DNA of 64,000 bases, taken from contig OY782041.1 of assembly GCA_963677595.1 (NCBI GenBank), positions 960,001 through 1,024,000 of the forward strand. The letters are read 5' to 3'. The DNA comes from Spirochaetia bacterium (GTDB lineage: Bacteria; Spirochaetota; Spirochaetia; CAKZLE01). The notes below the pieces were generated by a model that worked only from the letters and a program-made list of their open reading frames with translations, was not told where the DNA came from and did no database searches. Of the stretch, positions 38,585 to 58,683 are shown one piece after another. Position 1 is the first letter of the stretch. Every line of letters starts with the position of its first letter. The translations under genes were made by a program, and so were the position numbers.

Positions 38585-38669
38585 CGTTTCCCTCCGTCAA
38601 TAGTATATGTTCTTTTCATATGCACAGCCGCCATCCGGCAGCTGTGCATCCTTCAGCTTCGATACGTCG

Positions 38670-39641: not shown

Positions 39642-39666
39642 AATGCAAATCTCCTTCTATATTCTC

Positions 39667-40494: not shown

Positions 40495-40542
40495 ATGTGC
40501 CTCCGTTAATAAATATCAATTCTTTTGCCTGGTAAGGCAGTT

Positions 40543-41616: not shown

Positions 41617-41741
41617 GTAATGCCACCTCTCTTTAGTATGTAAATAATAAACTGCTGATTGTTCTTTTGTCAACCTAATATGATACATTTCTAATCATAA
41701 CTAGTTTATTTATTATCATTAGTGATCTAAACCATGCCCGG

Positions 41742-42221
41742 TCAAGACTCCGAATGTGCTTTCACCTCGTCGACGTTCACGACCTCCATGTCGAAGCCGA
41801 GCTGGCTGTCCGTGTCGAAATAGGCCCAGACCAGGCCGGGTGTGTAGCGGTTCGAGAGTCCGTGCTGGACGAGCTCGACCCCGTTGGAGGCCATCTGCTC
41901 CTTAGCTTCGGCCATGTTGTCCACCGGGAACCCGATATGATGTACCCCGGGGCCGTGTTTTTCCATATGGGTCTTCCAGACCGATTCACCCTCGCTCTTG
42001 TCCTGGATGAACTCGAGGTCGATGTTCTCGAAATGGTAGATGCACAGGGTGTTGTTGAAGTTGCCCGGCTCATCCCGGTAGACCCCGCCGTCCCTCCTGA
42101 TATTCTCCAGCAGCACATCGGGCTCCATGCCGAAAAGCCGCTTCATCGTCTCCATCGTCTCCTTCAGGTCCTTGACGACCACGCCTACCTGGTCGATCTT
42201 GCCGAACTTGTTCTTCTTCAC
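41742..42221 (-). CDS. VOC/glyoxalase family protein (methylmalonyl-CoA epimerase-like)
   Basis: QVGVVV.D, LE.IQ, G.GVHHIG, E. Confidence 0.85.
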   Translation of the reverse strand: MKKNKFGKIDQVGVVVKDLKETMETMKRLFGMEPDVLLENIRRDGGVYRDEPGNFNNTLCIYHFENIDLEFIQDKSEGESVWKTHMEKHGPGVHHIGFPVDNMAEAKEQMASNGVELVQHGLSNRYTPGLVWAYFDTDSQLGFDMEVVNVDEVKAHSES

Positions 42222-43249: not shown

Positions 43250-43254
43250 GACCT

Positions 43255-44073
43255 CTACCCGAATACCCTTCGCATGGTCGCGAGGTCCTGCTTCGCGAGG
43301 TCAGCAGGCTCCCCCTTCTGGTTGAAGGGTTCGAGGGCATAGTAGTTCTCGCTGACGAACCAGCCGGTATAATCGGTGCCCTTGATGAGCTCAGCCGTCT
43401 TGTGGAAATCCCCCATCCCCTCCCCGAAGAAGGTGCAGCCCACATTGTCGAAAGGGGCATCCTTGAGGTGGTAATGGTCGATCACCCCGGCAAGCGGGAG
43501 GATCTCGTCCAGGGGACTTGCTGTCCCGAACCTGATCGGGTTGTAGATGTCATAGCAGACCTTCAGTCCCTCGCCCGCGATATCGATCATCCGCAGGATC
43601 TCCTCCACGGTGAGGATACTCTCGAAGACGATCGAGACCCCGTGGTCGGCACCGACCTTGCAGGCCCTCTTGAACATCTCGGCGGTATTGAGGAACTCCG
43701 CCTCGTTCTCTATCTGGCAGGCCATGCCGGAGGTGAGAAAGAGCTCGGGGATCTTCATGGCCGCACAGGCCGAGATCCCCTTCATGATGCTGTTCCAGCC
43801 CGCCTCCCCTTCCGAGGTGGAGAAGGGGTACTTCATCGTCCCTTCCCGCACGAGGGTGTAGAGGTGAAGGCCCTGGTATGCGATCCCGTACCGTTCTGCC
43901 GCCTCGATATACTGCTGCTGCACGGAGGCACGGTTGAGGGGGAAGGACTCTTTCGCCCCGCCTGCATCACCGAGCTGGATCCCGTCAAAACCGACCCCAG
44001 CTGCGAACTGCACGGCATCCACGCCGGAAGCCGGCAGGACCCATTCACATACCCCGTATCTGTTCTTTCCCAT
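43255..44073 (-). CDS. Sugar phosphate isomerase/epimerase (xylose-isomerase-like TIM barrel)
   Basis: E, D..N, H.KD, E metal ligands. Confidence 0.85.
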   Translation of the reverse strand: MGKNRYGVCEWVLPASGVDAVQFAAGVGFDGIQLGDAGGAKESFPLNRASVQQQYIEAAERYGIAYQGLHLYTLVREGTMKYPFSTSEGEAGWNSIMKGISACAAMKIPELFLTSGMACQIENEAEFLNTAEMFKRACKVGADHGVSIVFESILTVEEILRMIDIAGEGLKVCYDIYNPIRFGTASPLDEILPLAGVIDHYHLKDAPFDNVGCTFFGEGMGDFHKTAELIKGTDYTGWFVSENYYALEPFNQKGEPADLAKQDLATMRRVFG

Positions 44074-44179
44074 AATCTTTCTCTCTTTATTTCTTCACCG
44101 GCCAGGCAGAGGATGATACGGCGATCCTCCCGGATCGCCGCTGCCTTCTGCCCCTGGTCCTCTAGTGATCCGGACCTGG

Positions 44180-45217
44180 TCAGTCTATCTCGATGATCGT
44201 CTTGATGTTGTTCTGCTTGTCCGCGATGGTGTCGTCATACGCCTGCTGGGACTGGTCGAACGGATAGACCTTGGTCACGATGCTCTTGATGTCGATCCTG
44301 CCTGAAGCTACCGACTCGATCGCTGCAGGGAAGATGTTCCGGTAACGGAAGACCGTCTTGATCTGTGCTTCCTTGATGTAGAGGTTCCGGAAGCTGTAAG
44401 GGACTTCATCAAAGAGATTCCCCACGATGACTACCGTACCGCCCCGCCCTACCAGATGGCTGGTCTGAGCATAGGTGATCTTGTTGCCGGCTGTCTCGAA
44501 GACCTGGTTGGTCCCCTTCCCGTCGGTCAGCTCCATGGCCTTCTTGATCGTATCGTCCTTCAGCGGGTTGATGACATAGTCGGCACCGATCTTCAGGGCA
44601 AGCTCGAGCCTGCTCTCGACCAGGTCGGCAACGATGGCCTTCGAGGCCCCCCAGGCTTTCGCTGCCAGCAGGGTCGCAAGGCCGATACAGCCGCCGCCGA
44701 GTACGGTGATGGAGTCGCCCATCGATACCTCTCCCTGCTTCACGGCATGGATACCCACAGCCAGGGGTTCGATCAGTGCTCCCTCGAGGGTGGACATCCC
44801 CTCAGGCAGCTTGAATGCCATGTAGGCAGGATAGCTCATGTACTTCCGCATAGCTCCGTCATAGGGTGGTACTGCCATGAACTGCACATCCGGGCAGAGG
44901 TTGTAGCGCCCGGAGAGACAGTACTCGCACTTCCCGCAGGGAAGGCCCGGTTCGAGTGCCACGGTATCACCGACAGCAAGATGCTTCACATTCTTCCCGA
45001 CCTCGTAGACCACCCCGGCACACTCGTGCCCGAGGATCAGCGGGAGCTTGGTCTCTCGGGTGGGGATCCCGCCCAGCTCGAAGAGATGCGCATCGGAACC
45101 GCAGATCCCGACATGCTTCATCTGTACCCCGACCTCATCATCCCCGACGGTCGGCATGGGGATCTCCTGTATCTCGAACTGCTTGGCTTTTACCATGAAT
45201 ACGGCTTTGTTCTTCAT
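44180..45217 (-). CDS. NAD(P)-dependent polyol (sorbitol/xylitol-type) dehydrogenase
   Basis: GICGSD.H, GHE, EPG..C..C..C, EPLAVG, GGGCIG, FRY. Confidence 0.92.
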   Translation of the reverse strand: MKNKAVFMVKAKQFEIQEIPMPTVGDDEVGVQMKHVGICGSDAHLFELGGIPTRETKLPLILGHECAGVVYEVGKNVKHLAVGDTVALEPGLPCGKCEYCLSGRYNLCPDVQFMAVPPYDGAMRKYMSYPAYMAFKLPEGMSTLEGALIEPLAVGIHAVKQGEVSMGDSITVLGGGCIGLATLLAAKAWGASKAIVADLVESRLELALKIGADYVINPLKDDTIKKAMELTDGKGTNQVFETAGNKITYAQTSHLVGRGGTVVIVGNLFDEVPYSFRNLYIKEAQIKTVFRYRNIFPAAIESVASGRIDIKSIVTKVYPFDQSQQAYDDTIADKQNNIKTIIEID

Positions 45218-45597: not shown

Positions 45598-46377
45598 ATG
45601 CAGATAAGTACCATCGCCTCCAACCGGCATGTGAAGATCCTAGATATCCTCTCGAAAGAGGGAAAGGTACGGGTAGATACGCTCAGCGACCTCTTCGATG
45701 TCGCCCCGATCACGATCAGGCGGGACCTGGACTACCTTGACAGCCAGAAACTCCTGATCAGGACCCACGGGGGTGCGACACGGATCGATGCAGGTCCCAC
45801 CATCATCCCGGAGGAGAACTTCTCCGAGAAGGGGATCTCCCATACCTTCGAGAAGCAGCGGATCGCGCAGAAGGCTGCGGAACTGATCGAGGATGATGCC
45901 ATTCTCTATGTGAACAGCGGTTCTACCGTCCTTTACTTCATCCAGGCCCTGAAGGACAAGCATATCAGGATCATCACCAACAATGCTGGTGCGATCGGGA
46001 TCAAGAAGGACCCGTCCATCGAGATGGTCATGCTCGGGGGCGAATACCGGGAGAAATCGAGATCGTTCATCGGGATCATCACGATCGAGAACATCCAGAA
46101 GATAAACAGCACCCATACCGTGCTCGGCATCAACGGGTTCAGCCTGGAGCGGGGACTCATGACATCAGTCCTGCAGGAATGCACCGTTAACCAGGCAATG
46201 ATCCAGAACACGAACGGGAATGTGATCGTCCTTGCGGATCACTCGAAAATCGGCAAGGTCTCCAACTTTGCCACCGCGACCCTCGACAAGGTCGACATCC
46301 TCGTTACAGATGATCAAGCCCCCAAAGAGATCATAGCTGAACTCGAGAAAGCAGGGATCACGGTGATCATTGCGTAA
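45598..46377 (+). CDS. DeoR/GlpR family transcriptional regulator (UlaR-like role inferred)
   Basis: TIRRDL, RTHGGA, SGST, ADHSK. Confidence 0.93.
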   Translation: MQISTIASNRHVKILDILSKEGKVRVDTLSDLFDVAPITIRRDLDYLDSQKLLIRTHGGATRIDAGPTIIPEENFSEKGISHTFEKQRIAQKAAELIEDDAILYVNSGSTVLYFIQALKDKHIRIITNNAGAIGIKKDPSIEMVMLGGEYREKSRSFIGIITIENIQKINSTHTVLGINGFSLERGLMTSVLQECTVNQAMIQNTNGNVIVLADHSKIGKVSNFATATLDKVDILVTDDQAPKEIIAELEKAGITVIIA

Positions 46378-46382
46378 TATGA

Positions 46383-47861
46383 TCACAATCCCTTGATCGC
46401 GGCATACAGTCTTTTCTTCTTTTCCTTCAGGTCACTGAAAACCTTCACCCCTTCAGGTCCCGGCTGATACGTCCTGCTCTTCGTATAGCCTGCATACCGC
46501 GAAAAAGCTGCTTCATAGGAACCATACAGCCCAATCGTCACTGCCGTGCTCATCCAGGCACCCACGGCGGTCGCCTCCAGGTTGTCATACCTGGTCACGG
46601 GCATGCTGAACCCGTCAGCCTGCATCTGGTTGTAGAGATCGAACCGGGTCATCCCGCCGGCAACACTCACGGTCTCTACAGGTATCCCGAGTTCATCGAT
46701 CAGGTCGATGTTCTCAGCAGTCTCAACGACGATACCCTCGAGAATCGACCTCGCAATATCACCCCGCTTCGTTGCCAGGCTAAGCCCGAAGAATACACCT
46801 TTCGCACCGGGGTCCCAGTAGGGGGCACCCCGCCCTGTCGGGTGCGGCAGGCAAACCACTCCATGCGATCCGGGGACCGAGTCCATGATCTCACGGTCGA
46901 TCCTCCTGAAGACCGGCTCCCCCTCGGGGAGCTCCTCATAGAGTTCCTCACTGAGCCACCGGTAGATGGTCCCCGAGGCAAGGGTTCCTGCCTCGATGAT
47001 ATACCTGCCGGGGATCGCCCCGACATTGCAGAAGAGACGCTTGTCCTCATCGATGACCGGATTGTCGCTGCAGGCGATCACATAGGATCCGGTCCCGGTA
47101 TTCACCACGATGTTCCCGGGGGCGATGAGGCCGAGTCCAAGAGCAGCGCACTGCTGGTCGCCACCGGCAGAGATCACCGGTATCGTATCACTGGAGTTAA
47201 GCATGTCCAAATATGGCCTTGTCAAGGCCCCGCAGATACTGCCGGGGGCAACGAGGTCGCAAAGGTGTCCCCTGTCGACCTCGAAGACCGAGAGGAGTTC
47301 CTCATCCCAGTCGAGAGTCTCGAGGTTGAAGAGGTTGGTACGGCTTGCCAGGGAGTGGTCGGTGACGAACCTCCCGGTCAGCAGGTAGATGATGTAGTCC
47401 TGCACCCCGATGTACTTATGGGCTTGCGCATGCAGCTCAGGCCTGTTCCGTCTGAACCAGAGCATCTTGACCCCGGAGAAGACCGAGGTGATCTTGAGCC
47501 CTGATTTCCTGAAGACCGTATCATCATGATGTAGTAGCTCCTCGCAGAGCGCATCGGTACGTTTGTCCTGCCACATGATCGCAGATGCCAGCGGAGTCCC
47601 GTCCTCAGAGACCGGGAATACCGGCGAACGGAAGGCCGTGACGCCGATGCCCAGGATATGGATCTCAGGTCCTCCTGCGATCTCCGTGAGTATCTCAGTC
47701 AGGGCGTCCTTCCAGATGAGCGGATCCTGTTCGACCCGGCCTTGCTCACGGAAAGAGGGGCAGGTATGGCGCTGGGAGATCGTGATCATCTCCCCGGAAG
47801 GGGAGAAGAGCACGCCCCGCATGCTGGTGGTCCCTATGTCGAGAGAAAGAATAGCCTCCAT
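46383..47861 (-). CDS. FGGY-family carbohydrate kinase
   Basis: DIGTTS, WQDKR, GGDQQ, GTG, GGM. Confidence 0.92.
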   Translation of the reverse strand: MEAILSLDIGTTSMRGVLFSPSGEMITISQRHTCPSFREQGRVEQDPLIWKDALTEILTEIAGGPEIHILGIGVTAFRSPVFPVSEDGTPLASAIMWQDKRTDALCEELLHHDDTVFRKSGLKITSVFSGVKMLWFRRNRPELHAQAHKYIGVQDYIIYLLTGRFVTDHSLASRTNLFNLETLDWDEELLSVFEVDRGHLCDLVAPGSICGALTRPYLDMLNSSDTIPVISAGGDQQCAALGLGLIAPGNIVVNTGTGSYVIACSDNPVIDEDKRLFCNVGAIPGRYIIEAGTLASGTIYRWLSEELYEELPEGEPVFRRIDREIMDSVPGSHGVVCLPHPTGRGAPYWDPGAKGVFFGLSLATKRGDIARSILEGIVVETAENIDLIDELGIPVETVSVAGGMTRFDLYNQMQADGFSMPVTRYDNLEATAVGAWMSTAVTIGLYGSYEAAFSRYAGYTKSRTYQPGPEGVKVFSDLKEKKKRLYAAIKGL

Positions 47862-47875
47862 ACATCCCCTCTTAT

Positions 47876-48580
47876 TCACTTCTGTCCGTAATAGGCATCC
47901 TTACCGTGCTTGCGCAGGTAGTGCTTGTCAAGCATGGCTGACGGGATGCTCTCATGCCCAGGGGAAAGCAGCATGGTCTGGTAGGCCATGGCCGCAAGCT
48001 CCTCCATGACGACCGCGTTATGGACCGCATCCTCCGGGCTCTTCCCCCAGGTGAACGGGCCGTGACAGGCGACTACCACACCGGGCATCGCTGCCGGGTC
48101 GATTCCAAGTCCCCTGAACGTCTCGCTGATGACCTCACCGGTATTCACCTCATAGGCAGACTCGATCTCATCACGGGTCAGTCTCCTGGTGCAGGGGATA
48201 TCCCCGTAGAAATAGTCGGCATGGGTCGTCCCGAATGCCGGGATGTCCATCTCGGCTTGTGCCCAGGTCGTCGCCATCCTCGAATGGGTATGGACGATAC
48301 CCCGGCACTCCGGGAAGTCCCGGTAGAGCACGAGGTGCGTGGCAAGATCCGAGCTTGGCCTGTACGACCCTTCTAGCGTGATCCCGTCCATGTCAACGAT
48401 GACCAGGTCATCTATGCCCATTGTATCATAGGAAACCCCGCTCGGCTTGATTATTACCCTGGTCCTGTCTTCGGTGATCCCGCTGACATTCCCCCAGGTA
48501 TAGGTCACCAGGCCCTTTCTCGGGAGTTCGAGGTTAGCCTCCAGCACCCGTTCCTTCAATGCTTTCAATTCTTCTTTCAT
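47876..48580 (-). CDS. araD: L-ribulose-5-phosphate 4-epimerase (UlaF/AraD)
   Basis: [31 protein letters not shown]. Confidence 0.95.
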
Positions 48581-49455
48581 TCCAGATACCCGCCTTCTCT
48601 CATCTGCTCAAGCATCCACTCCCGGGCCTCACGTACAGCCGCCTCGGGATCGTCACTCTTCTCGGTCCACATCTCGATCAGGAAGGGACCGCGGTATTCC
48701 AGCTCCCTCAACAATGAGAAGACGCCGGGGAAATCGACGCAGCCGGCCCCGAACGGGACCTCCTTGAACTTCCCTGGGTACTCATCGGTGACTGCGAGGG
48801 TATCCTTGAGGTGGATGGCGGTGATCTGGTTACTACCCTTACGGAGTTCCGCCTCCACGTCATTGCCCCAGGCAGTCAGGTTCCCGACATCGGGATAGAC
48901 GGTGAACCAGGGGGAAGGGAGCTCTTCTTTATAGGTGAGATACCGGGTAATGGAGCTCATGAGGGGAGTGTCCATGATCTCCATGGCGAGCATTACCTGC
49001 TCCCGCGCAGCATACGACACGGCTTCAGCCAAGCCTTCTCTGAACCACTGGAGGGTCTGCTCGTCACTCTCCTCATAATAGACATCATAGCCTGCGAGCT
49101 GGATCACCCGCACACCGAGATCTACCGCGAGATCCACGGCCTTCCGCATGATCTCCCGTCCCTTCGCTCGTATTTCGGGATCATGGGAACCGAGCGGGAA
49201 CCGCCGGTGCCCGCTCAGGCAGATCGACGGGATCCGGATGTCGTGTGCATACATGGACGAGACGCAGGAGAGGCGCTCTTCCCTGCTCCAATCGAGCCTG
49301 GCAAGCCGTTCATCGGTCTCATCGACCGACATCTCCACGAAGTCGTACCCGCACCGTCTTGCCAGGGAGAAACGTTCATCCCAGGAGAGTCCCTTCAGCA
49401 GGGCCTTCTCATAGATACCGAGCTTGAGTTCATGTTCTGTAAGAGACTTCATCAT
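48577..49455 (-). CDS. ulaE: L-xylulose-5-phosphate / L-ribulose-5-phosphate 3-epimerase
   Basis: [33 protein letters not shown]. Confidence 0.95.
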
Positions 49456-49457
49456 CC

Positions 49458-50108
49458 CTACCAGAGCCTGTCGATCTCTGCCTTGAAAGCCCGTGCGACT
49501 GCCACTGGGTCAGGTGCGCCCGAGAGAGATCTGCCTGCGATGAAACACTTCACCGGGATTCCCTTGAAGTATTCAAGATCCTCAGGGTTGAGCCCTCCGG
49601 TAACGGAGATATTGAACCCCATCTCTGCCATCTTCCTGATCTTGTTCAGGTCGTTCTCTCCCCACTTCTGCCCGGCAAGCTCTGCATCCCGGCCCCGGTG
49701 GTAGATAGCCTGAGTCAGCCCGAGCTTCCGCCACTCGGCAGCATGCTCGAAGGTCCAGTCCCCGTAGAGCTCGACCTGGATGTCGCCGCCATGCTCGTCG
49801 GCTACCTTCTTGGCAGCTGCCATGGTCGCATAGGGGGCGGAGCAGATGACCGTCATCCAGGTAGCCCCCTTCTCGAAGACCTGCTTTGCCACGACTGTGC
49901 CGGCATCGGCAGCCTTGAGGTCAGCAAGTACGATCTTCTCAGGGTAGAGAGCCCGAAGGGTCTCCACTACCCGGGGAGCCCCTTCCGCGTAACAGAGGAT
50001 CGTCCCTCCCTCCAGTACATCGACCTCATCAGCCAGGACCCTCGTGGTCTCCAGGGCTTCTGCCAGACTCAGGTGGTCCAGCGCTACCTGCAGCAATGGT
50101 TTACTCAT
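49458..50108 (-). CDS. ulaD: 3-keto-L-gulonate-6-phosphate decarboxylase
   Basis: LQVALD, E.GTIL..AEG, AD.K.ADAG, YHRGRD. Confidence 0.95.
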   Translation of the reverse strand: MSKPLLQVALDHLSLAEALETTRVLADEVDVLEGGTILCYAEGAPRVVETLRALYPEKIVLADLKAADAGTVVAKQVFEKGATWMTVICSAPYATMAAAKKVADEHGGDIQVELYGDWTFEHAAEWRKLGLTQAIYHRGRDAELAGQKWGENDLNKIRKMAEMGFNISVTGGLNPEDLEYFKGIPVKCFIAGRSLSGAPDPVAVARAFKAEIDRLW

Positions 50109-50317
50109 ATTCTCCCTCCTTGAACGTCACATAGTGAAATGTTCTATCAGTTCGTTTTTATGCTTTTTTATGTTCTATGAGTGTAATAGTAGAGCGATAT
50201 CATCCATTTGTAAAGATAATAATGTTTCTTTTGTTCTTTTTTTATGTTTTTTTTGTTGACAAATGAACAGGGCGGGTGTTTAATAGAATTATAAGCAACT
50301 GACATCAGGAGTGATGA

Positions 50318-51382
50318 ATGAAGAAGATAGATACCATAACACGGGAATCCTGGATCCTGTCGACCTTCCCGGAATGGGGCACCTGGCTCAACGAGGAGAT
50401 CGAGGAGACGGTCGTGGCACCCGGGACATTCTCCATGTGGTGGCTCGGCTGTACCGGCCTGTGGGTGAAGAGTGAGGGCAATGCCAACATCTGCATCGAC
50501 CTCTGGACCAAGACCGGGAAGAAGTCACAGAAAGACAAGCTCATGAAGCAGCAGCACCAGCACCAGAGAATGATCGGCTGCGTGGCACTGCAGCCGAACC
50601 TGCGGAACGTCCCCTGCGTGATAGACCCCTTCGCGATCAGGGAAGTGGACGCGATCCTCGCGACCCATGACCATGGCGACCATATAGACGAGAACGTGGC
50701 AGCGGCAGTCCTGCAGAACTGCGATGCTTCCGTCCCCTTCATCGGGCCGCAGGCCTGTGTGGACCTCTGGGTTTCCTGGGGAGTACCCGAGGAGCGATGC
50801 ATCGCCATGAAGCCCGGCGATTCGGTCACGATCAAGGATACCACCATCAAGGCCCTTGACTCCTTTGACCGCACCGAGCTCGTGACCGCACCGAAAGGCG
50901 TCACGCTGAAAGGCAAGATGCCCCAGGAGATGGACCGGCTGGCAGTCAACTATTACATAACGACCCCGGGAGGTTCTCTCTACCACAGCGGTGACTCCCA
51001 CTACTCCAATTATTATGCCAAGCACGGCAACGAGCACAAGATCGATGTGGCCCTCGGTTCTTTCGGCGAGAATCCGAGAGGCATGACTGACAAGATGACA
51101 GCTGTCGATATCCTCAGGATGGCAGAATGTCTCAATGCGAAAGTGGTAATCCCCATCCACCATGACATCTGGACGAACTTCCAGGCGGACCCGAAAGAGA
51201 TCCAGGTCCTCTGGGAGATGAAGAGGCACCGCCTCCAGTACGGGTTCAAACCCTTCATCTGGCAGGTCGGGGGGAAGTTCACCTGGCCGGACGACAAGGA
51301 CAGGATGGAATACAACTACGCCAGGGGCTTCGATGACGCATTCGCCATCGAGCCGGACCTGCCGTTCAAGTCCATGCTGTAG
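50318..51382 (+). CDS. ulaG: L-ascorbate-6-phosphate lactonase
   Basis: [36 protein letters not shown]. Confidence 0.95.
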
Positions 51383-51461
51383 GAATGCGGCATGCATGAA
51401 GAGGATTTACAATTTCATGAGATGGAATGTGAGTAAATACAGAGAGGAAAAGGAGAGAATT

Positions 51462-52433
51462 ATGAAGAAGAAGATTTTGTTGGCGTTAGTATTGGTACTC
51501 GCTGCATCGTTCAGCCTGATGGCTGCCGGGTCCCAGGAACAGGAAGAACAGCCGGCGTATCCGAAGAAGGATATCCAGTTCATCGTACCATTCCCGATCG
51601 GGGGATCCACAGGTACCCCTGCGCAGATCCTCATCAACTACCTTGATAAGGAATTCCCTGATGTAGATGTCGTCCTGAGTCAGATCACCGGTGCCGGCGG
51701 TTCTGTCGGTGCACGGTCAGTCATGGGTGAGAAACCTGACGGGTATACCTTCCTCATTGCTGTCCCGGGCTTCAGCGTCCAGAAGGTCCTGGCTGACCTT
51801 GACTTCACCTTCAGGGATTTCGAGCAGGTAGCAGCATACGGAAGCGCAGAGCAGGTGCTCGTCGTCCGTGGCAACTCGGACTACAAGAGCTTCGATGACC
51901 TGCTGGCTGCAGCCAAGAAGAACCCCGGCAAGCTCAACGTAGGGGCTCCTACCGGTACATCACTGCAGATGGCTACCCTTGCGATCGAGGCAGAGATGGG
52001 CGTTGACTTTAACATCGTCGATATCGGCGGCGTCTCAGTCAAGCCACCAGAGCTGCTCAGTGGAAGGGTCGAGGCGTACATCGACTCAACCGCAAAGACC
52101 ATCCCCTACATCGAATCGGGTGATTTCCGGGCCGCAGGCCTCTGGGGCATTGAACGAAGCCCGTTCCTCCCCGACGTCGCTGCCCTGAATGAGTCAGGCT
52201 TCGATATGATGCTCGAAGAGGTACAGGGTGTATGGGCTCCGAAAGACACTCCTGAGTACATCCTCGAGGCTATGGCAGATGCGATCAAGACGGTCACCTC
52301 CAACCCTGAGTTCGTCAAGGAGTTCGAGGGCAAGGGCTTTACCAAGGTCTCGTACAAGGACCGTGCAAGCTATATCAAGTTCCTGGAAGAATATGAAGCA
52401 ACCTGTGTGGAAGTCGCAGAGAAACTGATGTAA
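51462..52433 (+). CDS. Tripartite tricarboxylate transporter substrate-binding protein (TctC/Bug)
   Basis: YPKKDI.FIVPF..GG, GAGG.VG, KPDGYT. Confidence 0.9.
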   Translation: MKKKILLALVLVLAASFSLMAAGSQEQEEQPAYPKKDIQFIVPFPIGGSTGTPAQILINYLDKEFPDVDVVLSQITGAGGSVGARSVMGEKPDGYTFLIAVPGFSVQKVLADLDFTFRDFEQVAAYGSAEQVLVVRGNSDYKSFDDLLAAAKKNPGKLNVGAPTGTSLQMATLAIEAEMGVDFNIVDIGGVSVKPPELLSGRVEAYIDSTAKTIPYIESGDFRAAGLWGIERSPFLPDVAALNESGFDMMLEEVQGVWAPKDTPEYILEAMADAIKTVTSNPEFVKEFEGKGFTKVSYKDRASYIKFLEEYEATCVEVAEKLM

Positions 52434-52447
52434 ATTATGAGAGGGTG

Positions 52448-52483
52448 ATGCAAAGCTTTGGCAGCAATACCAAAGCTTTGCAT
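52448..52483 (+). other. Intercistronic 14-bp stem-loop after tctC
   Basis: ATGCAAAGCTTTGG-N8-CCAAAGCTTTGCAT, no U-tract. Confidence 0.7.
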
Positions 52484-52500
52484 GCATCCAAGAGGTTATT

Positions 52501-52968
52501 ATGGAAATACTATTTCTGGGGATACTGTTCATCATCTCGGGTATCCTGTTCATTCAAACACTATCATATTCAGTCCCCTCGTATGACACGTCTGGAGGGC
52601 CTGCGTTGTTCCCGCAATACATCCTGATTCTCATGATGATCTCTATTGTGGTACTGATCATCCAGCTGCTTAAGAACAAGTCAGGCAAGGAGTTCGTCTT
52701 CCTGAATCTCTTCAGAGGCCTGCGGGGGATGTTCCTCCTGACTATCGTGCTGTATCTCATTGCCTTGAAGTTCTTCGGGTTCTTCATTGCCACCGCGATA
52801 TTCCTGGTATTCACCGTAAATTATCTTACGAATGAGTATACGTCATCCATCGGCACCGTGAAGCAGGTCATCATCCGGTCTGTCTTCCTGGTCGCATTCA
52901 CTGCTGCAATCTATTTCCTCTTCGGAGATATCTTCAAGATCATGCTGCCGAAAGCTTCGCTATTCTAG
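52501..52968 (+). CDS. TctB-family small membrane subunit
   Basis: GPALFP, GF...T, F...LP. Confidence 0.88.
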   Translation: MEILFLGILFIISGILFIQTLSYSVPSYDTSGGPALFPQYILILMMISIVVLIIQLLKNKSGKEFVFLNLFRGLRGMFLLTIVLYLIALKFFGFFIATAIFLVFTVNYLTNEYTSSIGTVKQVIIRSVFLVAFTAAIYFLFGDIFKIMLPKASLF

Positions 52969-52986
52969 ACGGCATCGAGGTGTAAA

Positions 52987-54492
52987 ATGATTGATATTTT
53001 ATTAAGTGTTATAAATCCTTTGACAATACTTGTGATGGCTGCCGGGGTAGCATACGGGATTATCTTCGGGGCAATCCCGGGTCTCTCCTCCAGTGTGGCT
53101 GTTGCCTTGATCATACCATTGACCTACGGGTTCGATTCCCTGCTGGCGATCTCATTGATGGTTGCCGTATACGTAGGCGGGGTATCAGGGGGGCTGATCT
53201 CAGCTATTCTCCTGAGAATCCCGGGCACCCCGTCTTCCATCGTGACGACGTTCGACGGGTACCCTCTCGGCCAGCAGGGGAAAGCCGGCCAGGCCATAGG
53301 CTTAGCTATCTTCTCATCTGTGATCGGCGGGCTTATCGGGGCATTCTTCCTCATAACCCTTTCTCCGCTCCTGGCGAAAGTCACCATCATCTTCAGCCCG
53401 TTCGACTATTTCGGCATCACCGTATTCTCGCTGAGTCTCGTCTGCATGCTGTTGGGTGAGAATGCTGTGAAGGGGCTGATCACCACACTGATCGGGCTGA
53501 CGTTATCGTTCTTCGGGACCAGCCCCATCGACGGCAAGCCGAGGTTCACCTTCGGGAACCACAACCTCGACAACGGTTTCAACGTGATCGTGGTCATCAT
53601 CGGAGTCTTTGCGATCTCCGAGATGCTGAACTCCGTCCTCAAGGGCGGGGATAAGAGCAAGGAGACCTCCTTCTCGAAGAAGCAGGGATTCTTCCCGTCC
53701 CTCTCAAAGATCAAGTTCCATGCAGTGAACATGGTCCGTTCCGGACTGATCGGGACGGCTTTAGGTATCCTTCCCGGTCTGAGCGGGCCGGAGGCTGCCC
53801 TGATCTCCTACTCGAGGGCACAGAAACGGTCCAAGGAACCCGAGAAGTTCGGCCATGGCAGTGAGGAGGGCCTCGTTGCATCCGAAGCATCGAACAATGC
53901 CGTCGCAGGGGGAGCTCTCATCCCTATGCTCGCTCTCGGTATCCCAGGAAACGCCGTTGCCGCCGTCATCATGGGAGGGTTCATCGTCCATGGGGTCCAG
54001 GTGGGACCGATGCTCTTCACCAACAGCCCCAACCTGGTCCGGGGGATCATGATCGCCTTCTTCGTCGCGAACATCCTGATGCTCCTCATCGAGTCCTTCG
54101 CGATCAAGGGATTCGTCAAGATCCTCTCCGTTCCCAAACAGTATCTCTATCCTATCATCATCATGTTCTGCGTCATCGGCGTCAACAGCGTGAACAACCG
54201 GTTCTTCGATGCGATCCTGATGCTGGGATTCGGGATCCTCGGGTACATCCTCGAGAAGAACAAGTATCCGCTCGGCCCACTGGTATTGGGCTTCATCCTT
54301 GGAAGCATCATCGAGCTGAACTACAGAAGGGCGATCATGTACCATGGGACCTTTGCCAATATCGTGACGAGTGAATTCACCATCGGGACGGTATTCATCA
54401 TCCTGGCAGCCATCCTGCTGTTCATGAACTTCGTCATGCCGATCATCAAAGGTGCGAACAAGAAGAAGACCGTATCAGATACGGAAAAATAA
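52987..54492 (+). CDS. TctA-family permease
   Basis: GAIPGL, IPGTPS, EASNNA, LGIPG. Confidence 0.93.
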   Translation: MIDILLSVINPLTILVMAAGVAYGIIFGAIPGLSSSVAVALIIPLTYGFDSLLAISLMVAVYVGGVSGGLISAILLRIPGTPSSIVTTFDGYPLGQQGKAGQAIGLAIFSSVIGGLIGAFFLITLSPLLAKVTIIFSPFDYFGITVFSLSLVCMLLGENAVKGLITTLIGLTLSFFGTSPIDGKPRFTFGNHNLDNGFNVIVVIIGVFAISEMLNSVLKGGDKSKETSFSKKQGFFPSLSKIKFHAVNMVRSGLIGTALGILPGLSGPEAALISYSRAQKRSKEPEKFGHGSEEGLVASEASNNAVAGGALIPMLALGIPGNAVAAVIMGGFIVHGVQVGPMLFTNSPNLVRGIMIAFFVANILMLLIESFAIKGFVKILSVPKQYLYPIIIMFCVIGVNSVNNRFFDAILMLGFGILGYILEKNKYPLGPLVLGFILGSIIELNYRRAIMYHGTFANIVTSEFTIGTVFIILAAILLFMNFVMPIIKGANKKKTVSDTEK

Positions 54493-54510
54493 TATAAAGG
54501 ATTTATCGTA

Positions 54511-56004
54511 ATGAAAGCCATACTGGTCATGATGGATAGTCTCAACAGGGAGTATCTTGAAACCTACAACGAAGACACACATGTGAAGTCACCGAACCTC
54601 CTGCAATTCTCGAAGGAGTCACGGGTCTTCACCAACCACTACATCGGTTCAGCACCCTGCATGCCGGCACGGCGGGACCTCCTCACCGGGAGACTCAACT
54701 TCCTGGAACGCGGATGGGGACCGGTCGAGGCATATGACACCACGATCAATTCCCTCATGAAGAAGAACAATATCTATTCTCATATCGTCTCCGATCATTG
54801 TCACTACATGGACCGGGGCGGAGAGAACTACCTGCAGGAATACAACACCTGGGACTACATCCGGGGGCAGGAGTATGACCCATGGGTCTCTCAGGTAACC
54901 CAGCCGGTGAAGGAGGACCACTATGGGGTCATCTTCACCCAGTACGAACTGAACAGGACTGCTTTCAAGACGGAGGAGGATTACCCTACCCCCAGGACGT
55001 TCACGGCTGCCTGCGAATGGCTAGAGAAGAACAAGGATGAAGATGACTTCTTCCTTCAGGTCGAGGTGTTCGACCCGCATGAACCCTTCGACACCCCCCA
55101 GAAATACCTCGATATGTACGACGACCACTATGACGGCCTGCGGTTCGACTGTTCTACCTACGATGCAGTCACCGAACCCGCAGATGCGATAGAGCACCTG
55201 CAGAAACGGTATTCTGCCAGTGTGACCATGACTGATGCCTGGTTCGGGAAGTTCATCGACAAGGTCAAGGAACTCGGGCTGTACGATGACACCATGATCA
55301 TCGTCACCACCGACCATGGCCACCTGCTGGGCGAACACGGGTTCACCGGCAAGAACTACATGCACGGCTATAACCGGCTCACGAACATCCCGAGCATGAT
55401 ACGCTTCCCCGGCATCGACAACTCCGGGCAGCGCGAGGATTGCCTCTCCCAGCTCATTGACCTCTCTGTGACCCTGCTCGATTACTTCAACATCGAGAAG
55501 ACTGAGACCATGCAGGGGGAATCCCTGATCCCGGTTCTCACTGGCGAGACAGATACAGCAAGAGAAGAGATCCTGTACGGCTGGTTCGGTGGGACCATCA
55601 ATGTCTACGACGGGAAGTATACCTACTTCAGGGCACCGAAGAGGGAAGACAACATGCCGCTCTACCACTACTGTTCCACGCCAACCACCCTGTTGAAGTT
55701 TCTTGGGCCCGATGTCGCAGATGAGATCGAGACGGGCAGGTACCTCCCCTACACGAACTTCCCGGTATACAAGATCCCGGGATACTTCCCGATCGGGGGG
55801 CATTTCAAGTCAACGAAGTACATCCGTGACACCCTGCTGTTCGACCGGGATTCCGATTACTACCAGGAGCACCCCATCAAGGATGAGGAGATCGAGAAAT
55901 CGATGGCCTCCAAGCTGGTCAAGCTGATGCTTGAGGCAGACTCCCCAGAAGAGCAGTTCGTCAGGGTCGGGCTGGAAGAGGAGCTTGCAGCCTACTCTGG
56001 ATAA
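54511..56004 (+). CDS. Formylglycine-dependent (Cys-type) sulfatase, cytoplasmic
   Basis: CMPARRDLLTG (CxPxR), DPHEP, TDHG..LGEH; no signal peptide. Confidence 0.93.
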   Translation: MKAILVMMDSLNREYLETYNEDTHVKSPNLLQFSKESRVFTNHYIGSAPCMPARRDLLTGRLNFLERGWGPVEAYDTTINSLMKKNNIYSHIVSDHCHYMDRGGENYLQEYNTWDYIRGQEYDPWVSQVTQPVKEDHYGVIFTQYELNRTAFKTEEDYPTPRTFTAACEWLEKNKDEDDFFLQVEVFDPHEPFDTPQKYLDMYDDHYDGLRFDCSTYDAVTEPADAIEHLQKRYSASVTMTDAWFGKFIDKVKELGLYDDTMIIVTTDHGHLLGEHGFTGKNYMHGYNRLTNIPSMIRFPGIDNSGQREDCLSQLIDLSVTLLDYFNIEKTETMQGESLIPVLTGETDTAREEILYGWFGGTINVYDGKYTYFRAPKREDNMPLYHYCSTPTTLLKFLGPDVADEIETGRYLPYTNFPVYKIPGYFPIGGHFKSTKYIRDTLLFDRDSDYYQEHPIKDEEIEKSMASKLVKLMLEADSPEEQFVRVGLEEELAAYSG

Positions 56005-56024: not shown

Positions 56025-56058
56025 AAGAACCCCCCGGGTGCATAACCCGGTGGTTCTT
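56025..56058. terminator. Hairpin between convergent operons
   Basis: AAGAACC..CCGGGT/ACCCGG..GGTTCTT. Confidence 0.5.
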
Positions 56059-56089: not shown

Positions 56090-57127
56090 TCAGAACAGCT
56101 GCACTGCTGATGTCTTGAAAACGGCGAAGACTCTGGCTCCCTTAGCAAGTTGCATCTGCTCGAACGAGCGTTCTGTTACGACAGCCTTCAGGGAGATCCC
56201 GGCAGGGGATCCGCACTCCACATGGAGCAGCACTCCCCGATCTCCTAGATGATTGACCTTAGCAATAATACCGCTGAAGCTGTTCATGGCACTGCTCTCA
56301 AGCGGCTGGCTCGACAGGATGATATCACTGCTGCGTACCACTGCAGTCGTGACCGTCTCAGGAGCATGGACCACTTTCAAGTCGATCGGGGGATCAGTCC
56401 CCTCAACCTGAAAGTAACTGAAATACTCATCTCGCTTCCATATCTTTCCCCGGAATCCCGAATAATCCATAGGAACCGACTTCCCATGCTCCATATGCCA
56501 GATGACGTCGGCAAGCCTGAAGGCGAATTCCTTGTTATGGGTGGCGATGATGACAGCCTTACCCTGATGCTTCAACTGCAGGACCTGCTTCTCCAGCTGG
56601 AGAATGCTTTTCTCATCAAGGTGCGCAGTCGGTTCATCCAACAGGATGATCTCTCGGTCAGCAAGCAGTGCACCGGCTATAGCCACCCGCTTCTTTTCCC
56701 CCCCTGAGAGTTTATGTACTGAACGTCCACTGAGCTCTGCCAGCCTCATCTCAGAGAGGACTACAGTGATCCGTTCATTGAGCCCTGTCTTGCCCCCGGT
56801 TTGCTTCCTGAGCCCGGGAAGGAGCTTTGCAAGGCTCTGCTCGACCGTCCCGGTCAGGAGGTAGGGGCTCTGGTGAATATAGAGGAGGTCATCAGGCCAG
56901 GAGACCTGCCGGTCCCCAGCCTCGGTATGTACGGTTATGGTCCCGCTGCCGACCTCCAGGATCCCGGCTAGGAGCTTCAAGAGGGTCGTCTTCCCCGTTC
57001 CATTTGCCCCGAGCAGGACAGAGACCTGGCTGGAGTGGAACTCCATCGCGGGGATATCGACCACAGGATTCTCTACCTGGTAGGAGAATGTGACTGCATC
57101 TACTCGCAAGATGAATTCATCGTTCAT
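56090..57127 (-). CDS. tupC: Tungstate ABC transporter ATPase with C-terminal TOBE domain
   Basis: GANGTGKT, LSGGE, DEPT, TOBE-like C-terminus; operon context. Confidence 0.85.
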   Translation of the reverse strand: MNDEFILRVDAVTFSYQVENPVVDIPAMEFHSSQVSVLLGANGTGKTTLLKLLAGILEVGSGTITVHTEAGDRQVSWPDDLLYIHQSPYLLTGTVEQSLAKLLPGLRKQTGGKTGLNERITVVLSEMRLAELSGRSVHKLSGGEKKRVAIAGALLADREIILLDEPTAHLDEKSILQLEKQVLQLKHQGKAVIIATHNKEFAFRLADVIWHMEHGKSVPMDYSGFRGKIWKRDEYFSYFQVEGTDPPIDLKVVHAPETVTTAVVRSSDIILSSQPLESSAMNSFSGIIAKVNHLGDRGVLLHVECGSPAGISLKAVVTERSFEQMQLAKGARVFAVFKTSAVQLF

Positions 57128-57800
57128 GCTTCACCCCGGCGTTGAGCAGGATATTGATTCCGAGGGAGATGATGATCAGCACGATACCGAGGGCAAGTCC
57201 CTGCTCGAAATTTCCCTTACTGGTCTCAAGTGCTATGGATGTGGTGATCGTTCGGGTATACCACCGAATATTCCCCCCGAGCATCATGGATACCCCGACC
57301 TCCCCGATCACCCGGCCGAACCCGGAGACCACTGCCAGCAGGATCTGCAGGCGTACCTCCCGCATGATGATGCTGAATCGTCTGATACCGGAGATCCGGT
57401 ACGTACGGAGCGTCTCAGACAGGGTGGGATCGATGGACTGGATCACACTCGTCGTCATTGAGGTGATGATTGGGATGATCAGGATGGTCTGGCCGATGAT
57501 GATGGCAGCAGGACTGAAGAGCAGTCCCAAGCTGCCGAACACGCCAGATCGAGAGAGGAATGAGTAGACGAAGAGTCCGACGACGACCGTAGGTATTGCC
57601 ATCAGGCTTCTCATCACAACCTGCAGCCACCTGGCTGCACGACGGTGCGAGAACCCCAGCAGGATACCCAGCGGTATGGAGAGCATGGAGGCCAGGATCG
57701 TCGAGATCCCGGCCAGACGAACTGAGACTGATACTATCAGGTAGATCTCATGGTCGAATGAGAAGAGTAACTCCAGGGCGTGTCCCAGTGCTGAATCCAT
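57117..57800 (-). CDS. tupB: Tungstate ABC transporter permease
   Basis: PTVVVGL..Y..LSRSG, GR.I.EVG..M.LGGNI...TRT.TT.IALETSKG. Confidence 0.92.
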   Translation of the reverse strand: MDSALGHALELLFSFDHEIYLIVSVSVRLAGISTILASMLSIPLGILLGFSHRRAARWLQVVMRSLMAIPTVVVGLFVYSFLSRSGVFGSLGLLFSPAAIIIGQTILIIPIITSMTTSVIQSIDPTLSETLRTYRISGIRRFSIIMREVRLQILLAVVSGFGRVIGEVGVSMMLGGNIRWYTRTITTSIALETSKGNFEQGLALGIVLIIISLGINILLNAGVKHER

Positions 57801-57813
57801 GCCGTCCTACAGG

Positions 57814-58683
57814 TTATTTCAATTGTGATGCTGCAATCGCATCAGGATAGAAGAGTTGCTCTCCTCCCTTGGTGAAATCCTTGATAGCCTGCTGTCCCGT
57901 GATGGACGTGAAGAAGGCAACAAGCTGCATGGCTGCTTCATACTTCACGTGGGGATATACCGATGGATTCACCGCGATGATCCCGTACGGGTTGAAGAGT
58001 CTGGAATCACCCTCGACCACGACGGAAAGATCGATAGAATCCTTCATAGCAATATAGGTCCCGCGGTCAGCGATGGTATAGCCCTGCATGTCATCGGTCA
58101 TGGTGATGACCGCACCCATGCCCTGTCCTGCTTCTCGGTACCAGGCGCCTTCCGGCTTGATCGATACCGAGTCCCAAAGCGAGAGTTCCTTGACATGCGT
58201 ACCTGAGTTGTCTCCGCGAGAGACAAAGATACTCTTTGTCGAAGCAACCTTCTTCAGAGCTTCACCGGCATCAGCCATCCCCTTGATACCGGCAGGATCA
58301 CTTGCCGGACCGAGGATGATGAAGTCATTATGCATGACATCTCGACGGTTCACCCCGTAGCCGTCAGCGACGAAGGCATCCTCGAGCGTCCGGGCATGAA
58401 CGAGGATGATATCGACGTCCCCCTTCGCACCAAGTGCGATTGCGTTACCGGTACCGGCCGCGATGACATCCACACCGATCCCTGTCTGCTCCTCAAAGAT
58501 AGGCAGAACTGCGCCAAACAGTCCGGAGTTGTCGGTACTGGTGGTGGAAGCTAAGAGGATTCGCACCTGTTCGGTCGAATTTGCAGTTGCCGGCTGTTCT
58601 GATTGTCCCTCTGCTGTGATCAACATCGCAGAGAACAGGATGGCGACCCCTATCAATAGGGTCTTCTTGATAATTGAGTTCAT
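57814..58683 (-). CDS. tupA: Tungstate ABC transporter substrate-binding protein
   Basis: STTSTDNSGL, GTG.A, SRGD.SGTH, DRGT. Confidence 0.95.
   Translation of the reverse strand: MNSIIKKTLLIGVAILFSAMLITAEGQSEQPATANSTEQVRILLASTTSTDNSGLFGAVLPIFEEQTGIGVDVIAAGTGNAIALGAKGDVDIILVHARTLEDAFVADGYGVNRRDVMHNDFIILGPASDPAGIKGMADAGEALKKVASTKSIFVSRGDNSGTHVKELSLWDSVSIKPEGAWYREAGQGMGAVITMTDDMQGYTIADRGTYIAMKDSIDLSVVVEGDSRLFNPYGIIAVNPSVYPHVKYEAAMQLVAFFTSITGQQAIKDFTKGGEQLFYPDAIAASQLK

What the first reader, a model, noticed from the sequence alone, without database searches (positions are those of the whole stretch)
46383..56004. PTS-less ula locus with TTT transporter, sulfatase and kinase: candidate ascorbate-2-sulfate catabolic pathway
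Seen: divergent operons ulaG-tctC-tctB-tctA-sulfatase and ulaD-ulaE-araD-FGGY kinase; no ulaABC PTS in the window; the sulfatase has no signal peptide. Known: the canonical ula pathway imports and phosphorylates L-ascorbate by PTS, then UlaG, D, E and F yield D-xylulose-5-P; L-ascorbate-2-sulfate is a stable natural vitamin C derivative (brine shrimp, fish, urine). Inference: TTT imports a sulfated ascorbate-like anion, the sulfatase releases it, and the kinase replaces PTS phosphorylation (on ascorbate or 3-keto-L-gulonate). I know of no described bacterial pathway with this layout.
Basis: partly seen in the sequence, partly recalled or inferred. Interest (0 to 1): 0.8.

Follow-up and report, generated by a model that had tools for sequence, protein, structure and literature searches.

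The report
PTS-free route for sulfated vitamin C
This bacterium has the known vitamin C breakdown genes but none of the usual importer, and the transporter, intracellular sulfatase and kinase that stand in its place, and recur with these genes in other bacteria, likely let it import sulfated vitamin C, remove the sulfate and phosphorylate the freed vitamin with an enzyme activity not yet described.

Summary
The layout is real: ulaG-tctCBA-sulfatase diverges from ulaD-ulaE-araD-FGGY kinase, beside a DeoR gene, and no ascorbate-type PTS was found in the 95%-complete genome.

Two layers emerge. (1) A conserved core of ulaG plus a distinct FGGY kinase group that is not LyxK. It was seen in 11 of 29 other class genomes with a kinase hit, usually beside an ABC importer. 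(2) An accessory TTT-sulfatase cassette, not found in 10 of those 11.

The cassette's link to the pathway is well supported. Of 8 genomes carrying this sulfatase clade, 7 have ulaG and the kinase, and 3 have them clustered in three different gene orders; one of these was a successful blind prediction. In two genomes the stand-alone cassette shares an operator-like 18-mer only with the kinase-ulaG promoter.

L-ascorbate-2-sulfate as substrate is inferred, not shown (about 0.55). The sulfatase lacks the canonical LysA, and no RNA or assay data exist.

The scan earlier proposed sulfated-ascorbate use for an E. coli PTS-sulfatase cassette. That enzyme is a separate branch (40% identical) of the same family. 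The TTT-plus-kinase form was not found in the literature searches.

The parts
45598..46377 (+). DeoR-family repressor, likely the local regulator
   Evidence: Pfam DeoRC and HTH_DeoR; 28.5% to E. coli UlaR, below the UlaR cut-off; relatives of 33-72% identity sit in most kinase-ulaG loci
46383..47861 (-). FGGY kinase of a ulaG-linked group; predicted L-ascorbate 6-kinase
   Evidence: Pfam FGGY_N/C; below every NCBIfam named-kinase cut-off; 22.9% to LyxK; R-S and non-Tyr substrate-site signature in 19 of 19 ula-context rows versus R-A plus Tyr in 12 of 12 sister rows without ula genes
47876..48580 (-). araD/ulaF, L-ribulose-5-phosphate 4-epimerase
   Evidence: NCBIfam PRK08193 361.9 > 257; 59.6% to UlaF
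48577..49455 (-). ulaE/sgbU, L-xylulose-5-phosphate (L-ribulose-5-phosphate) 3-epimerase
   Evidence: TIGR00542 416.6 > 272; 62.3% to SgbU, 55.6% to UlaE
49458..50108 (-). [quoted passage not shown]
   Evidence: NCBIfam PRK13305 315.5 > 294; 54.2% to UlaD
50109..50317 (.). Divergent control region with TTGACA at 50256-50261 and TGTTC/TGAAC repeats, candidate DeoR operators
   Evidence: sequence; repeats; a similar arrangement in orthologous regions
50318..51382 (+). ulaG, L-ascorbate-6-phosphate lactonase
   Evidence: NCBIfam PRK11709 648.6 > 306; PDB 2wyl E 9e-190; metal motifs intact
51462..52433 (+). tctC, TTT binding protein with an N-terminal leader
   Evidence: Pfam TctC; 59-81% to five orthologues that precede the same sulfatase; only distant solved relatives
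52443..52491 (+). Strong hairpin between tctC and tctB without a U-run; likely stabilises the binding-protein mRNA
   Evidence: 14-bp perfect inverted repeat; -29.3 kcal/mol, z -5.7, 0 of 200 shuffles as stable
52501..52968 (+). tctB, small TTT membrane subunit
   Evidence: Pfam TctB
52987..54492 (+). tctA, large TTT membrane subunit
   Evidence: Pfam TctA 482 bits
54511..56004 (+). Cytoplasmic Cys-type (CxPxR) S1-fold sulfatase of an uncharacterised D-H-x-H family
   Evidence: Pfam Sulfatase; C50-P52-R54, D9, H190, D268-H269, K281 conserved; model pLDDT 96 with S1 fold, at most 24% identity to solved chains
56025..56058 (+). Terminator-like hairpin that closes the operon against the convergent tup genes
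   Evidence: the folding z-score is weak (-1.5)

Best explanation
This is a PTS-free version of the ascorbate (ula) pathway in which the TTT transporter likely imports L-ascorbate-2-sulfate, the intracellular sulfatase likely removes the sulfate, and the FGGY kinase is predicted to phosphorylate the freed ascorbate at C6. UlaG, UlaD, UlaE and AraD would then convert L-ascorbate-6-phosphate to D-xylulose-5-phosphate, as in E. coli. Shown: gene identities, no ascorbate PTS found, co-conservation of kinase with ulaG and of the TTT-sulfatase cassette with both. From established knowledge: the UlaG to UlaF chemistry. Inferred: the kinase substrate, sulfatase activity after maturation by the genome's anSME, the TctC ligand, and DeoR control of both operons.
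For: (1) UlaG is a true orthologue (72.6% to E. coli). The 5 columns that separate PTS-linked from PTS-less UlaGs mostly carry the E. coli residue in the PTS-less group (4 of 5), so it should still need a 6-phosphorylated substrate, and no PTS was found to make it. (2) The kinase group travels with ulaG: 11 of 29 other class genomes with a hit have ulaG within the fetched stretch, as does a Levilactobacillus plasmid; it has its own substrate-site signature. (3) The sulfatase clade (22 rows, SH-aLRT 98 in a quick tree; G953 placed) is anchored in 8 genomes. All 8 have tctCBA directly upstream and 7 have ulaG plus the kinase, against ulaG in 23 of 401 phylum genomes. (4) Three different clustered orders: G000, G404 (deoR-ulaG-tctCBA-sulfatase-UROD-ABC-kinase, with a non-orthologous TTT) and G953 (deoR/tctCBA-sulfatase-kinase-ulaG-x-ulaE-araD). 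G953 was found by the sulfatase alone, before ulaG was looked for; 4 control genomes of its family lack a true ulaG. (5) In G844 and G859 an 18-mer from the kinase-ulaG promoter matches exactly two sites per genome at up to 2 mismatches, that promoter and the distant tctC-sulfatase promoter; the reversed control gave 0. (6) Family members lie beside FGE, radical-SAM/SPASM and TauE genes, and anSME is over cut-off in G000 and 4 of 5 others tested, which points to a formylglycine sulfatase. (7) A separate branch of the family (40% identity) is paired with a UlaA-like PTS IIC (38.7-39.4% to UlaA) in E. coli and Enterobacter. (8) Ascorbate 2-sulfate is a natural, oxidation-stable derivative (PMC6191929, passages).
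Against: No activity, ligand or expression data. The active site is non-canonical: the LysA position holds Asp or Thr/Ser, depending on the alignment, so it fits neither the arylsulfatase signature (Lys + His) nor the phosphonate-hydrolase signature (Tyr + Thr/Asp) of PMC5488252. 10 of the 11 other kinase-ulaG genomes in the class search lack the clade sulfatase (only 3 candidates scored per genome), and 0 of 80 metagenome loci of the wider family have ulaG within the fetched flank. G401 has the cassette with a GntR gene and no ulaG or kinase, though it is only 74% complete; G402 also puts the cassette behind GntR. G844 has an EIIC-GAT gene elsewhere. ulaD was not seen in the G953 cluster, nor ulaD/E/araD in the G404 stretch; those genomes were not searched for them. 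The 18-mer was spotted by eye first, G844 and G859 are close kin (96% identical sulfatase), and a matrix trained on 14 core promoters ranked the cassette promoters only modestly (top 0.3-8% for three, 7-39% for L001). The genome holds 22 sulfatase matches and 8 tctA genes, so chance adjacency in this one genome would be easy.
Confidence: 0.55

Rival explanations
1. The cassette feeds the same pathway from a different sulfated sugar acid or pentose (for example a sulfated L-gulonate, 3-keto-L-gulonate or L-lyxose/xylose unit), and the kinase acts below UlaG, as LyxK does.
For: TTT proteins typically bind carboxylates, which ascorbate-2-sulfate lacks (recalled). The wider family sits in inositol, mannose-type PTS and beta-glucoside PTS loci, so its substrates vary. 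The organism is rich in sulfatases (22 matches). Dehydrogenase, aldo-keto reductase and transketolase genes lie just upstream.
Against: UlaG would be superfluous, yet the kinase and the sulfatase are directly beside ulaG in G953 and ulaG leads the operon in G000 and G404. No dehydrogenase or reductase is co-conserved in the fetched loci. The kinase is not LyxK-like.
Confidence: 0.2
2. The substrate is a masked ascorbate, but the ester is a phosphate (ascorbate-2-phosphate or a phosphodiester), and the enzyme is an alkaline-phosphatase-superfamily phosphoesterase rather than a sulfatase.
For: LysA is missing, as in phosphonate monoester hydrolases (PMC5488252). PMHs rank among the top profile hits, and they also use formylglycine.
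Against: The Tyr + Thr/Asp PMH signature is absent. Relatives lie beside TauE exporters. Ascorbate-2-phosphate is mainly a synthetic feed additive (recalled).
Confidence: 0.12
3. The TTT simply imports plain ascorbate (or its oxidation products) for the kinase-ulaG core, and the sulfatase is a passenger or a sulfur-scavenging add-on with an unrelated substrate.
For: G000 lacks the ABC binding protein shared (61-81%) by 8 other PTS-less ulaG or kinase loci (best match 24-28%), so the TTT is its only candidate importer in the locus. TTT-sulfatase pairs of other branches recur in unrelated contexts.
Against: The sulfatase clade stays with ulaG-bearing genomes even when the TTT is replaced by a non-orthologous one (G403, G404: tctC 23-24%). 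G404 keeps both an ABC importer and the cassette. A second branch of the family is tied to a UlaA-like PTS.
Confidence: 0.13

Closest known systems
E. coli ula regulon (UlaABC PTS, UlaG, UlaD, UlaE, UlaF, UlaR); PMC3219644 and bioRxiv 10.1101/2020.09.08.288738, passages read
   Same: UlaG (72.6%), UlaD (54.2%), UlaE (55.6%) and UlaF (59.6%) homologues; ulaG divergent from ulaDEF; a DeoR repressor
   Different: No UlaABC was found in the genome; a TTT importer, a sulfatase and an FGGY kinase take its place. The gene-context section of PMC3219644 that I read describes PTS-linked regulons only.
E. coli / Klebsiella yiaK-S operon (YiaK, YiaMNO TRAP, LyxK, SgbH/U/E)
   Same: A non-PTS importer plus an FGGY kinase feeding decarboxylase and two epimerases; ulaE here is closer to SgbU (62.3%)
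   Different: It has no UlaG and starts from 2,3-diketo-L-gulonate with YiaK. Here there is UlaG, no YiaK or TRAP in the locus, and the kinase is 22.9% identical to LyxK with different site residues.
Sulfatase gene noted inside the duplicated ula regulon of Sebaldella termitidis (PMC3219644, section 3 part 4)
   Same: A sulfatase gene inserted among ula genes
   Different: That regulon is described with BglG in the PTS-type ula context, and the sulfatase is mentioned only as an insertion, with no function proposed. Whether it is of this family was not tested.
E. coli / Enterobacter PTS IIC-IIB-sulfatase cassette (in E. coli between rlmC and artJ); uncharacterised, proposed earlier in this scan
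   Same: Same D-H-x-H sulfatase family (40-42%), cytoplasmic, linked to ascorbate machinery (IIC 39% to UlaA)
   Different: A separate branch of the family tree; it imports by PTS, so it needs no kinase or TTT.
Formylglycine-dependent S1 sulfatases and phosphonate monoester hydrolases (BT1918, SpAS1/2, choline sulfatase, RlPMH)
   Same: Fold (VIA Z 30-35, rmsd about 2.5-3.8 A over 306-404 residues), CxPxR, metal ligands, HisB and LysB
   Different: At most 24% identity; an invariant D-H-x-H replaces G-K-x-H, so LysA is absent. No close characterised relative was found.

Membership tests
Ula (L-ascorbate PTS) system | UlaG lactonase orthologue | tested here: met
   648.6 bits > 306; 72.6% to E. 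coli UlaG
Ula (L-ascorbate PTS) system | UlaD, UlaE, UlaF homologues | tested here: met
Ula (L-ascorbate PTS) system | UlaABC phosphotransferase importer | tested here: not met
   0 EIIC-GAT and 0 PTS_EIIC matches in G000, 95.4% complete; no UlaA/B/C tblastn match
Ula (L-ascorbate PTS) system | UlaR repressor responding to ascorbate-6-phosphate | tested here: inconclusive
   DeoR family, co-conserved, but 28.5% to UlaR and under the cut-off; effector untested
Ula (L-ascorbate PTS) system | Growth on or induction by L-ascorbate | not testable with these tools
   needs culture
YiaK-S pathway | YiaK reductase and YiaMNO TRAP importer in the cluster | tested here: not met
   none in the locus; best genome matches 28-30% (YiaK) and up to 37% (YiaO), all elsewhere
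YiaK-S pathway | LyxK-type kinase | tested here: not met
   22.9% identity; site words FRSP/GGDQQ versus QGKG/LFDVV; separate branch
S1 formylglycine sulfatases | CxPxR motif and alkaline-phosphatase fold | tested here: met
   C50-M-P-A-R54; fold
S1 formylglycine sulfatases | Metal ligands, HisB and LysB | tested here: met
   D9, D268, H269, H190, K281 conserved; assigned by sequence alignment to solved sulfatases
S1 formylglycine sulfatases | LysA + HisA arylsulfatase signature (PMC5488252) | tested here: inconclusive
S1 formylglycine sulfatases | Maturase in the genome | tested here: met
   anSME 436 bits > 349; FGE-domain genes also present
S1 formylglycine sulfatases | Sulfate-ester hydrolysis | not testable with these tools
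   needs assay
Phosphonate monoester hydrolases | Tyr at LysA and Thr/Asp at HisA | tested here: not met
   D-H-x-H in place of Y-T-T
Tripartite tricarboxylate transporters | TctA, TctB and TctC together | tested here: met
   all three over Pfam cut-offs
Tripartite tricarboxylate transporters | Ligand identity | not testable with these tools
   only distant solved relatives, best E 1.9e-32

The most novel reading that the evidence does not exclude
Anaerobic spirochaetes and some other bacteria run a widespread PTS-independent vitamin C pathway built on an undescribed L-ascorbate 6-kinase. The slot after ulaG holds interchangeable 'import and unmask' cassettes for oxidation-stable, masked ascorbates: TTT plus the first bacterial ascorbate-2-sulfatase here, ABC plus GH3 or GH29 glycosidase for ascorbate glycosides, and ABC plus a conserved URO-D/MtaA-like protein for another conjugate such as O-methylascorbate.
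Probability: 0.3. Interest if true: 0.82.

Novelty: new variant of a known kind. Interest (0 to 1): 0.66.

Why it matters
If true, it names two enzyme activities that my literature searches did not find described in bacteria, an L-ascorbate 6-kinase and an ascorbate-2-sulfate sulfatase. It gives a first candidate substrate for a large uncharacterised sulfatase family (at least 2006 proteins at E <= 1e-100) and a non-carboxylate ligand for a TTT protein. It would also offer a microbial sink for ascorbate-2-sulfate, a metabolite that the search listing shows is often measured in human and animal metabolomics. All three predictions can be tested with purified proteins and purchasable compounds.

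Tried and rejected
- ula PTS elsewhere in the genome: not found.
- Kinase as LyxK, xylulokinase, gluconokinase or glycerol kinase: under all NCBIfam cut-offs, and the site residues differ.
- Whole sulfatase family tied to ulaG: rejected; 0 of 80 metagenome loci (35-66% identity) have ulaG in the fetched flank. Two genomes with relatives outside the clade (56% and 46%) have no true ulaG.
- Sulfatase as part of the conserved core: rejected.
- Kinship with the acesulfame (enol-sulfamate) sulfatase: PMC11500405 passages give it 30% to choline sulfatase, and nothing read links it to this family; sequences were not compared.
- Expression: no RNA holder listed; no evidence either way.
- Sigma-70 scan: 11 sites versus 6.6 +/- 2.8 in shuffles, and it did not list the ulaG promoter; uninformative.
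- Operator matrix: only modest specificity. Its best hit in G000 lies before an unrelated ABC binding-protein gene near 1,699,934, so the motif is probably generic for DeoR proteins.
- A search of 17 genomes of one further family found no clade sulfatase.
- Literature searches without a matching description: 0 papers; 0 papers for 'ascorbate kinase' terms. The library lacks most subscription journals. The 2020 JACS paper on another ascorbate pathway was not held, and I recall it only. Supplements were not read; the gene-context figure and additional files of PMC3219644 may list further loci.
Full report
Observation. On the plus strand ulaG (50318-51382), tctC (from 51462), tctB, tctA and a sulfatase (54511-56004) follow one another with gaps of 79, 67, 18 and 18 bases. 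On the minus strand ulaD, ulaE, araD and an FGGY kinase are tightly packed, and a DeoR gene (45598-46377) converges on the kinase. UlaG is 72.6% identical to the E. coli enzyme and passes its NCBIfam equivalog cut-off. The genome G000 is one contig of 4.33 Mb, 95.4% complete. It gave no match to EIIC-GAT or PTS_EIIC, and none to UlaA/B/C or mannose-type IIC/IID by tblastn. The sulfatase has no leader peptide. The genome has 22 sulfatase matches and 8 tctA genes, so adjacency in this genome alone proves little; comparison was needed.

Layer one: a PTS-less core. ulaG was found in 23 of 401 phylum genomes, counting G000 and one distant 35% hit. Of 20 loci fetched, 17 have ulaA nearby and 3 do not. 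The kinase had hits in 30 of 401 class genomes, counting G000. Of the 29 others, 11 have ulaG within the fetched stretch, 3 have the related deoR but no ulaG in the stretch (two are short contigs), and 15 show no ula gene. The same-genus and same-family relatives keep the kinase-araD-ulaE-ulaD/ulaG-deoR block almost unchanged, but with an ABC importer and a URO-D-like gene instead of TTT and sulfatase. At the positions that PMC3245297 (passages) names as specificity-determining in glycerol kinase (Arg83, Glu84, Tyr135), 19 of 19 ula-context kinases have Arg-Ser and a non-Tyr residue. The 12 sister kinases without ula genes have Arg-Ala and Tyr, and E. coli LyxK is far away at 22.9%. Three partial or interrupted hits (L167, L202, L203) were left out of that tree, and 2 of the 19 rows lack ulaG on their short contigs. 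A Levilactobacillus plasmid carries the same kinase type directly before ulaG, with only a PTS IIC annotated in the stretch shown. PTS-less UlaGs keep the metal motifs and show no substitution that E. coli UlaG would argue against. Since UlaG acts on L-ascorbate-6-phosphate (PMC3219644, passages), the simplest role for the kinase is to make that compound from free ascorbate. This is an inference.

Layer two: the TTT-sulfatase cassette. The wider sulfatase family is large and not tied to ulaG: 0 of 80 metagenome loci. A well-supported clade of about 62% identity or more (22 rows, SH-aLRT 98; quick tree, because the careful search did not finish) is different. It could be anchored in 8 genomes: G000, G401, G402, G403, G404, G844, G859 and G953. 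All 8 have tctCBA directly upstream, and 7 of 8 have ulaG (61-81%) and the kinase. The exception, G401, is 74% complete. Three genomes cluster the genes, each in its own order: G000; G404 (deoR-ulaG-tctCBA-sulfatase-UROD-ABC-kinase, with a TTT only 23-35% like ours); and G953 (deoR divergent from tctCBA-sulfatase-kinase-ulaG-x-ulaE-araD). G953 was picked by its sulfatase alone (identical to P0011, which its source names as uncultured Sphaerochaeta). ulaG then turned up 1.5 kb downstream, while four other genomes of its family had no true ulaG. In G844 (sulfatase identical to P0007, named by its source as Treponema parvum) and G859, the cassette stands about 0.85 Mb from the kinase-ulaG operon by the shorter way round. 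An 18-mer from the kinase promoter matches only that promoter and the tctC promoter at up to 2 mismatches; the reversed control gave none. The motif was noticed by eye, the two genomes are close kin, and a matrix trained on 14 core promoters gave weaker ranks, so this is supportive but not decisive. The cassette is accessory: 10 of the 11 other kinase-ulaG genomes in the class search have no clade sulfatase with this query. Kin are not independent. The seven positive genomes amount to about five lineages, and they span both main branches of the UlaG tree.

Is it a sulfatase? The model is confident (pLDDT 96) and has the S1 sulfatase fold, with no solved relative above 24% identity. CxPxR, the metal ligands, HisB and LysB are conserved by alignment. 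An invariant D-H-x-H replaces G-K-x-H, so LysA is missing. PMC5488252 (passages) separates arylsulfatases (Lys + His) from phosphonate hydrolases (Tyr + Thr/Asp) at these sites, and this family fits neither. PMC9063841 (passages) reports that LysA did not contact sulfate in choline sulfatase structures, so its loss need not exclude sulfatase activity. Context favours sulfate. Relatives sit beside FGE genes (L050, L059, L067, L230), radical-SAM/SPASM genes (L078, L082, L151) and TauE exporters (L059, L148, L230). anSME passes its cut-off in G000 and in 4 of 5 other clade genomes tested. In G402 a TauE gene follows ulaG directly.

Mechanism. TctCBA likely imports L-ascorbate-2-sulfate, the matured sulfatase likely frees ascorbate, the kinase is predicted to give ascorbate-6-phosphate, and UlaG, UlaD, UlaE and AraD lead to D-xylulose-5-phosphate. 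Because the kinase also occurs without the sulfatase, desulfation before phosphorylation is the more economical order. Ascorbate 2-sulfate occurs naturally and is stable to oxidation (PMC6191929, passages). I put this whole reading at 0.55. The link of the cassette to the ula pathway alone I put near 0.85-0.9. Rivals are another sulfated sugar acid (0.2), plain ascorbate import with a passenger sulfatase (0.13) and a phosphate ester (0.12).

Comparison with what is known. It works like the E. coli ula pathway below the first step and like yiaK-S in using an importer plus kinase (pathway description in bioRxiv 10.1101/2020.09.08.288738, passages; gene lists). It is a member of neither: the PTS is absent, and so are YiaK and a LyxK-type kinase. 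PMC3219644 (section 3 part 4) notes a sulfatase inserted in the Sebaldella termitidis ula regulon without proposing a function. Earlier notes of this scan proposed sulfated-ascorbate use for an E. coli PTS-sulfatase cassette. I checked the cassette: its IIC is 38.7% identical to UlaA, and its sulfatase belongs to the same D-H-x-H family but to a separate branch. This suggests that the family joined ascorbate machinery more than once. The notes' substrate claim is untested and adds no independent proof. Searches (listings and abstract starts only) found no description of an ascorbate kinase, a bacterial ascorbate sulfatase or a TTT-linked ula locus; most subscription journals are not in the library.

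Verdict. This is a new variant of a known pathway, with two candidate new enzyme activities that can be tested directly. Interest 0.66.

Noticed in passing
L004:11500-12663, L184:14916-16052, L188, L190, L191: A URO-D/MtaA-like gene forms an orthologous group (44-96% among themselves, at most 32% to any G000 paralogue) beside the ABC importer of PTS-less ula loci, in some of them in the slot that the sulfatase takes in G000. Function unexplained.
   Followed up: partly
L042:13516-14826; L214:4088-5821; L215:14096-15829: GH29 and GH3 glycosidase genes follow kinase-ulaG-ABC in three Treponemataceae-level genomes; they may unmask ascorbate glycosides.
   Followed up: partly
L145:187-1218; L004:3749-4849; L222:200-1255; L044, L045-L047: A 340-366 aa protein without a Pfam match recurs beside ulaG in both PTS and PTS-less loci, but was not found in G000. 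The Atlas groups it with VCBS/FG-GAP beta-propellers, with an AUDH propeller as a lower-ranked lead.
   Followed up: partly
L184:11718-13076 and L028, L185, L187-L190, L200: An orthologous ABC binding protein (61-81%) marks most PTS-less ula loci; it is a candidate ascorbate-binding protein.
   Followed up: partly
G000:C1:645000-664900 (L148) and L147: A paralogous TTT-ROK-sulfatase (45%) operon with an inositol-dehydrogenase-like gene, TauE and TIM-barrel genes suggests use of a sulfated cyclitol.
   Followed up: no
window 36794-45217 (-): An adjacent operon (two Zn dehydrogenases, TIM-barrel epimerase, aldo-keto reductase, VOC protein, split transketolase, RpiB, MFS) diverges from the deoR gene. 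It was not found beside the related ula loci, so it is probably a separate polyol pathway, though its transketolase could use xylulose-5-phosphate.
   Followed up: partly
L216 (G498:C9:4987-15104): The same-genus relative has a second, divergent ulaG (54%) behind another TTT, with araD, TIM, lactate-racemase-like and URO-D-like genes and no sulfatase.
   Followed up: no
G000:C1:1065332-1066105: A stand-alone TauE gene about 50 kb from the locus is 62% identical to the TauE that follows ulaG in G402; a possible sulfate exporter.
   Followed up: partly
L050, L059, L067, L069, L230, L231: Other branches of the same sulfatase family are coupled to mannose-type or beta-glucoside PTS genes, mostly with FGE and in some with TauE, pointing to further uncharacterised sulfated-sugar pathways.
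   Followed up: no
window 56090-58683 (-): A tungstate-type ABC operon (tupABC-like, below NCBIfam cut-offs) converges on the sulfatase; an aldehyde ferredoxin oxidoreductase and MoeB-like gene lie at 34083-36779.
   Followed up: no
L034 (G181:C19): A PTS-linked ula locus appears to be decaying: a stop inside ulaG, a fragmented ulaA and a partial ulaD.
   Followed up: no
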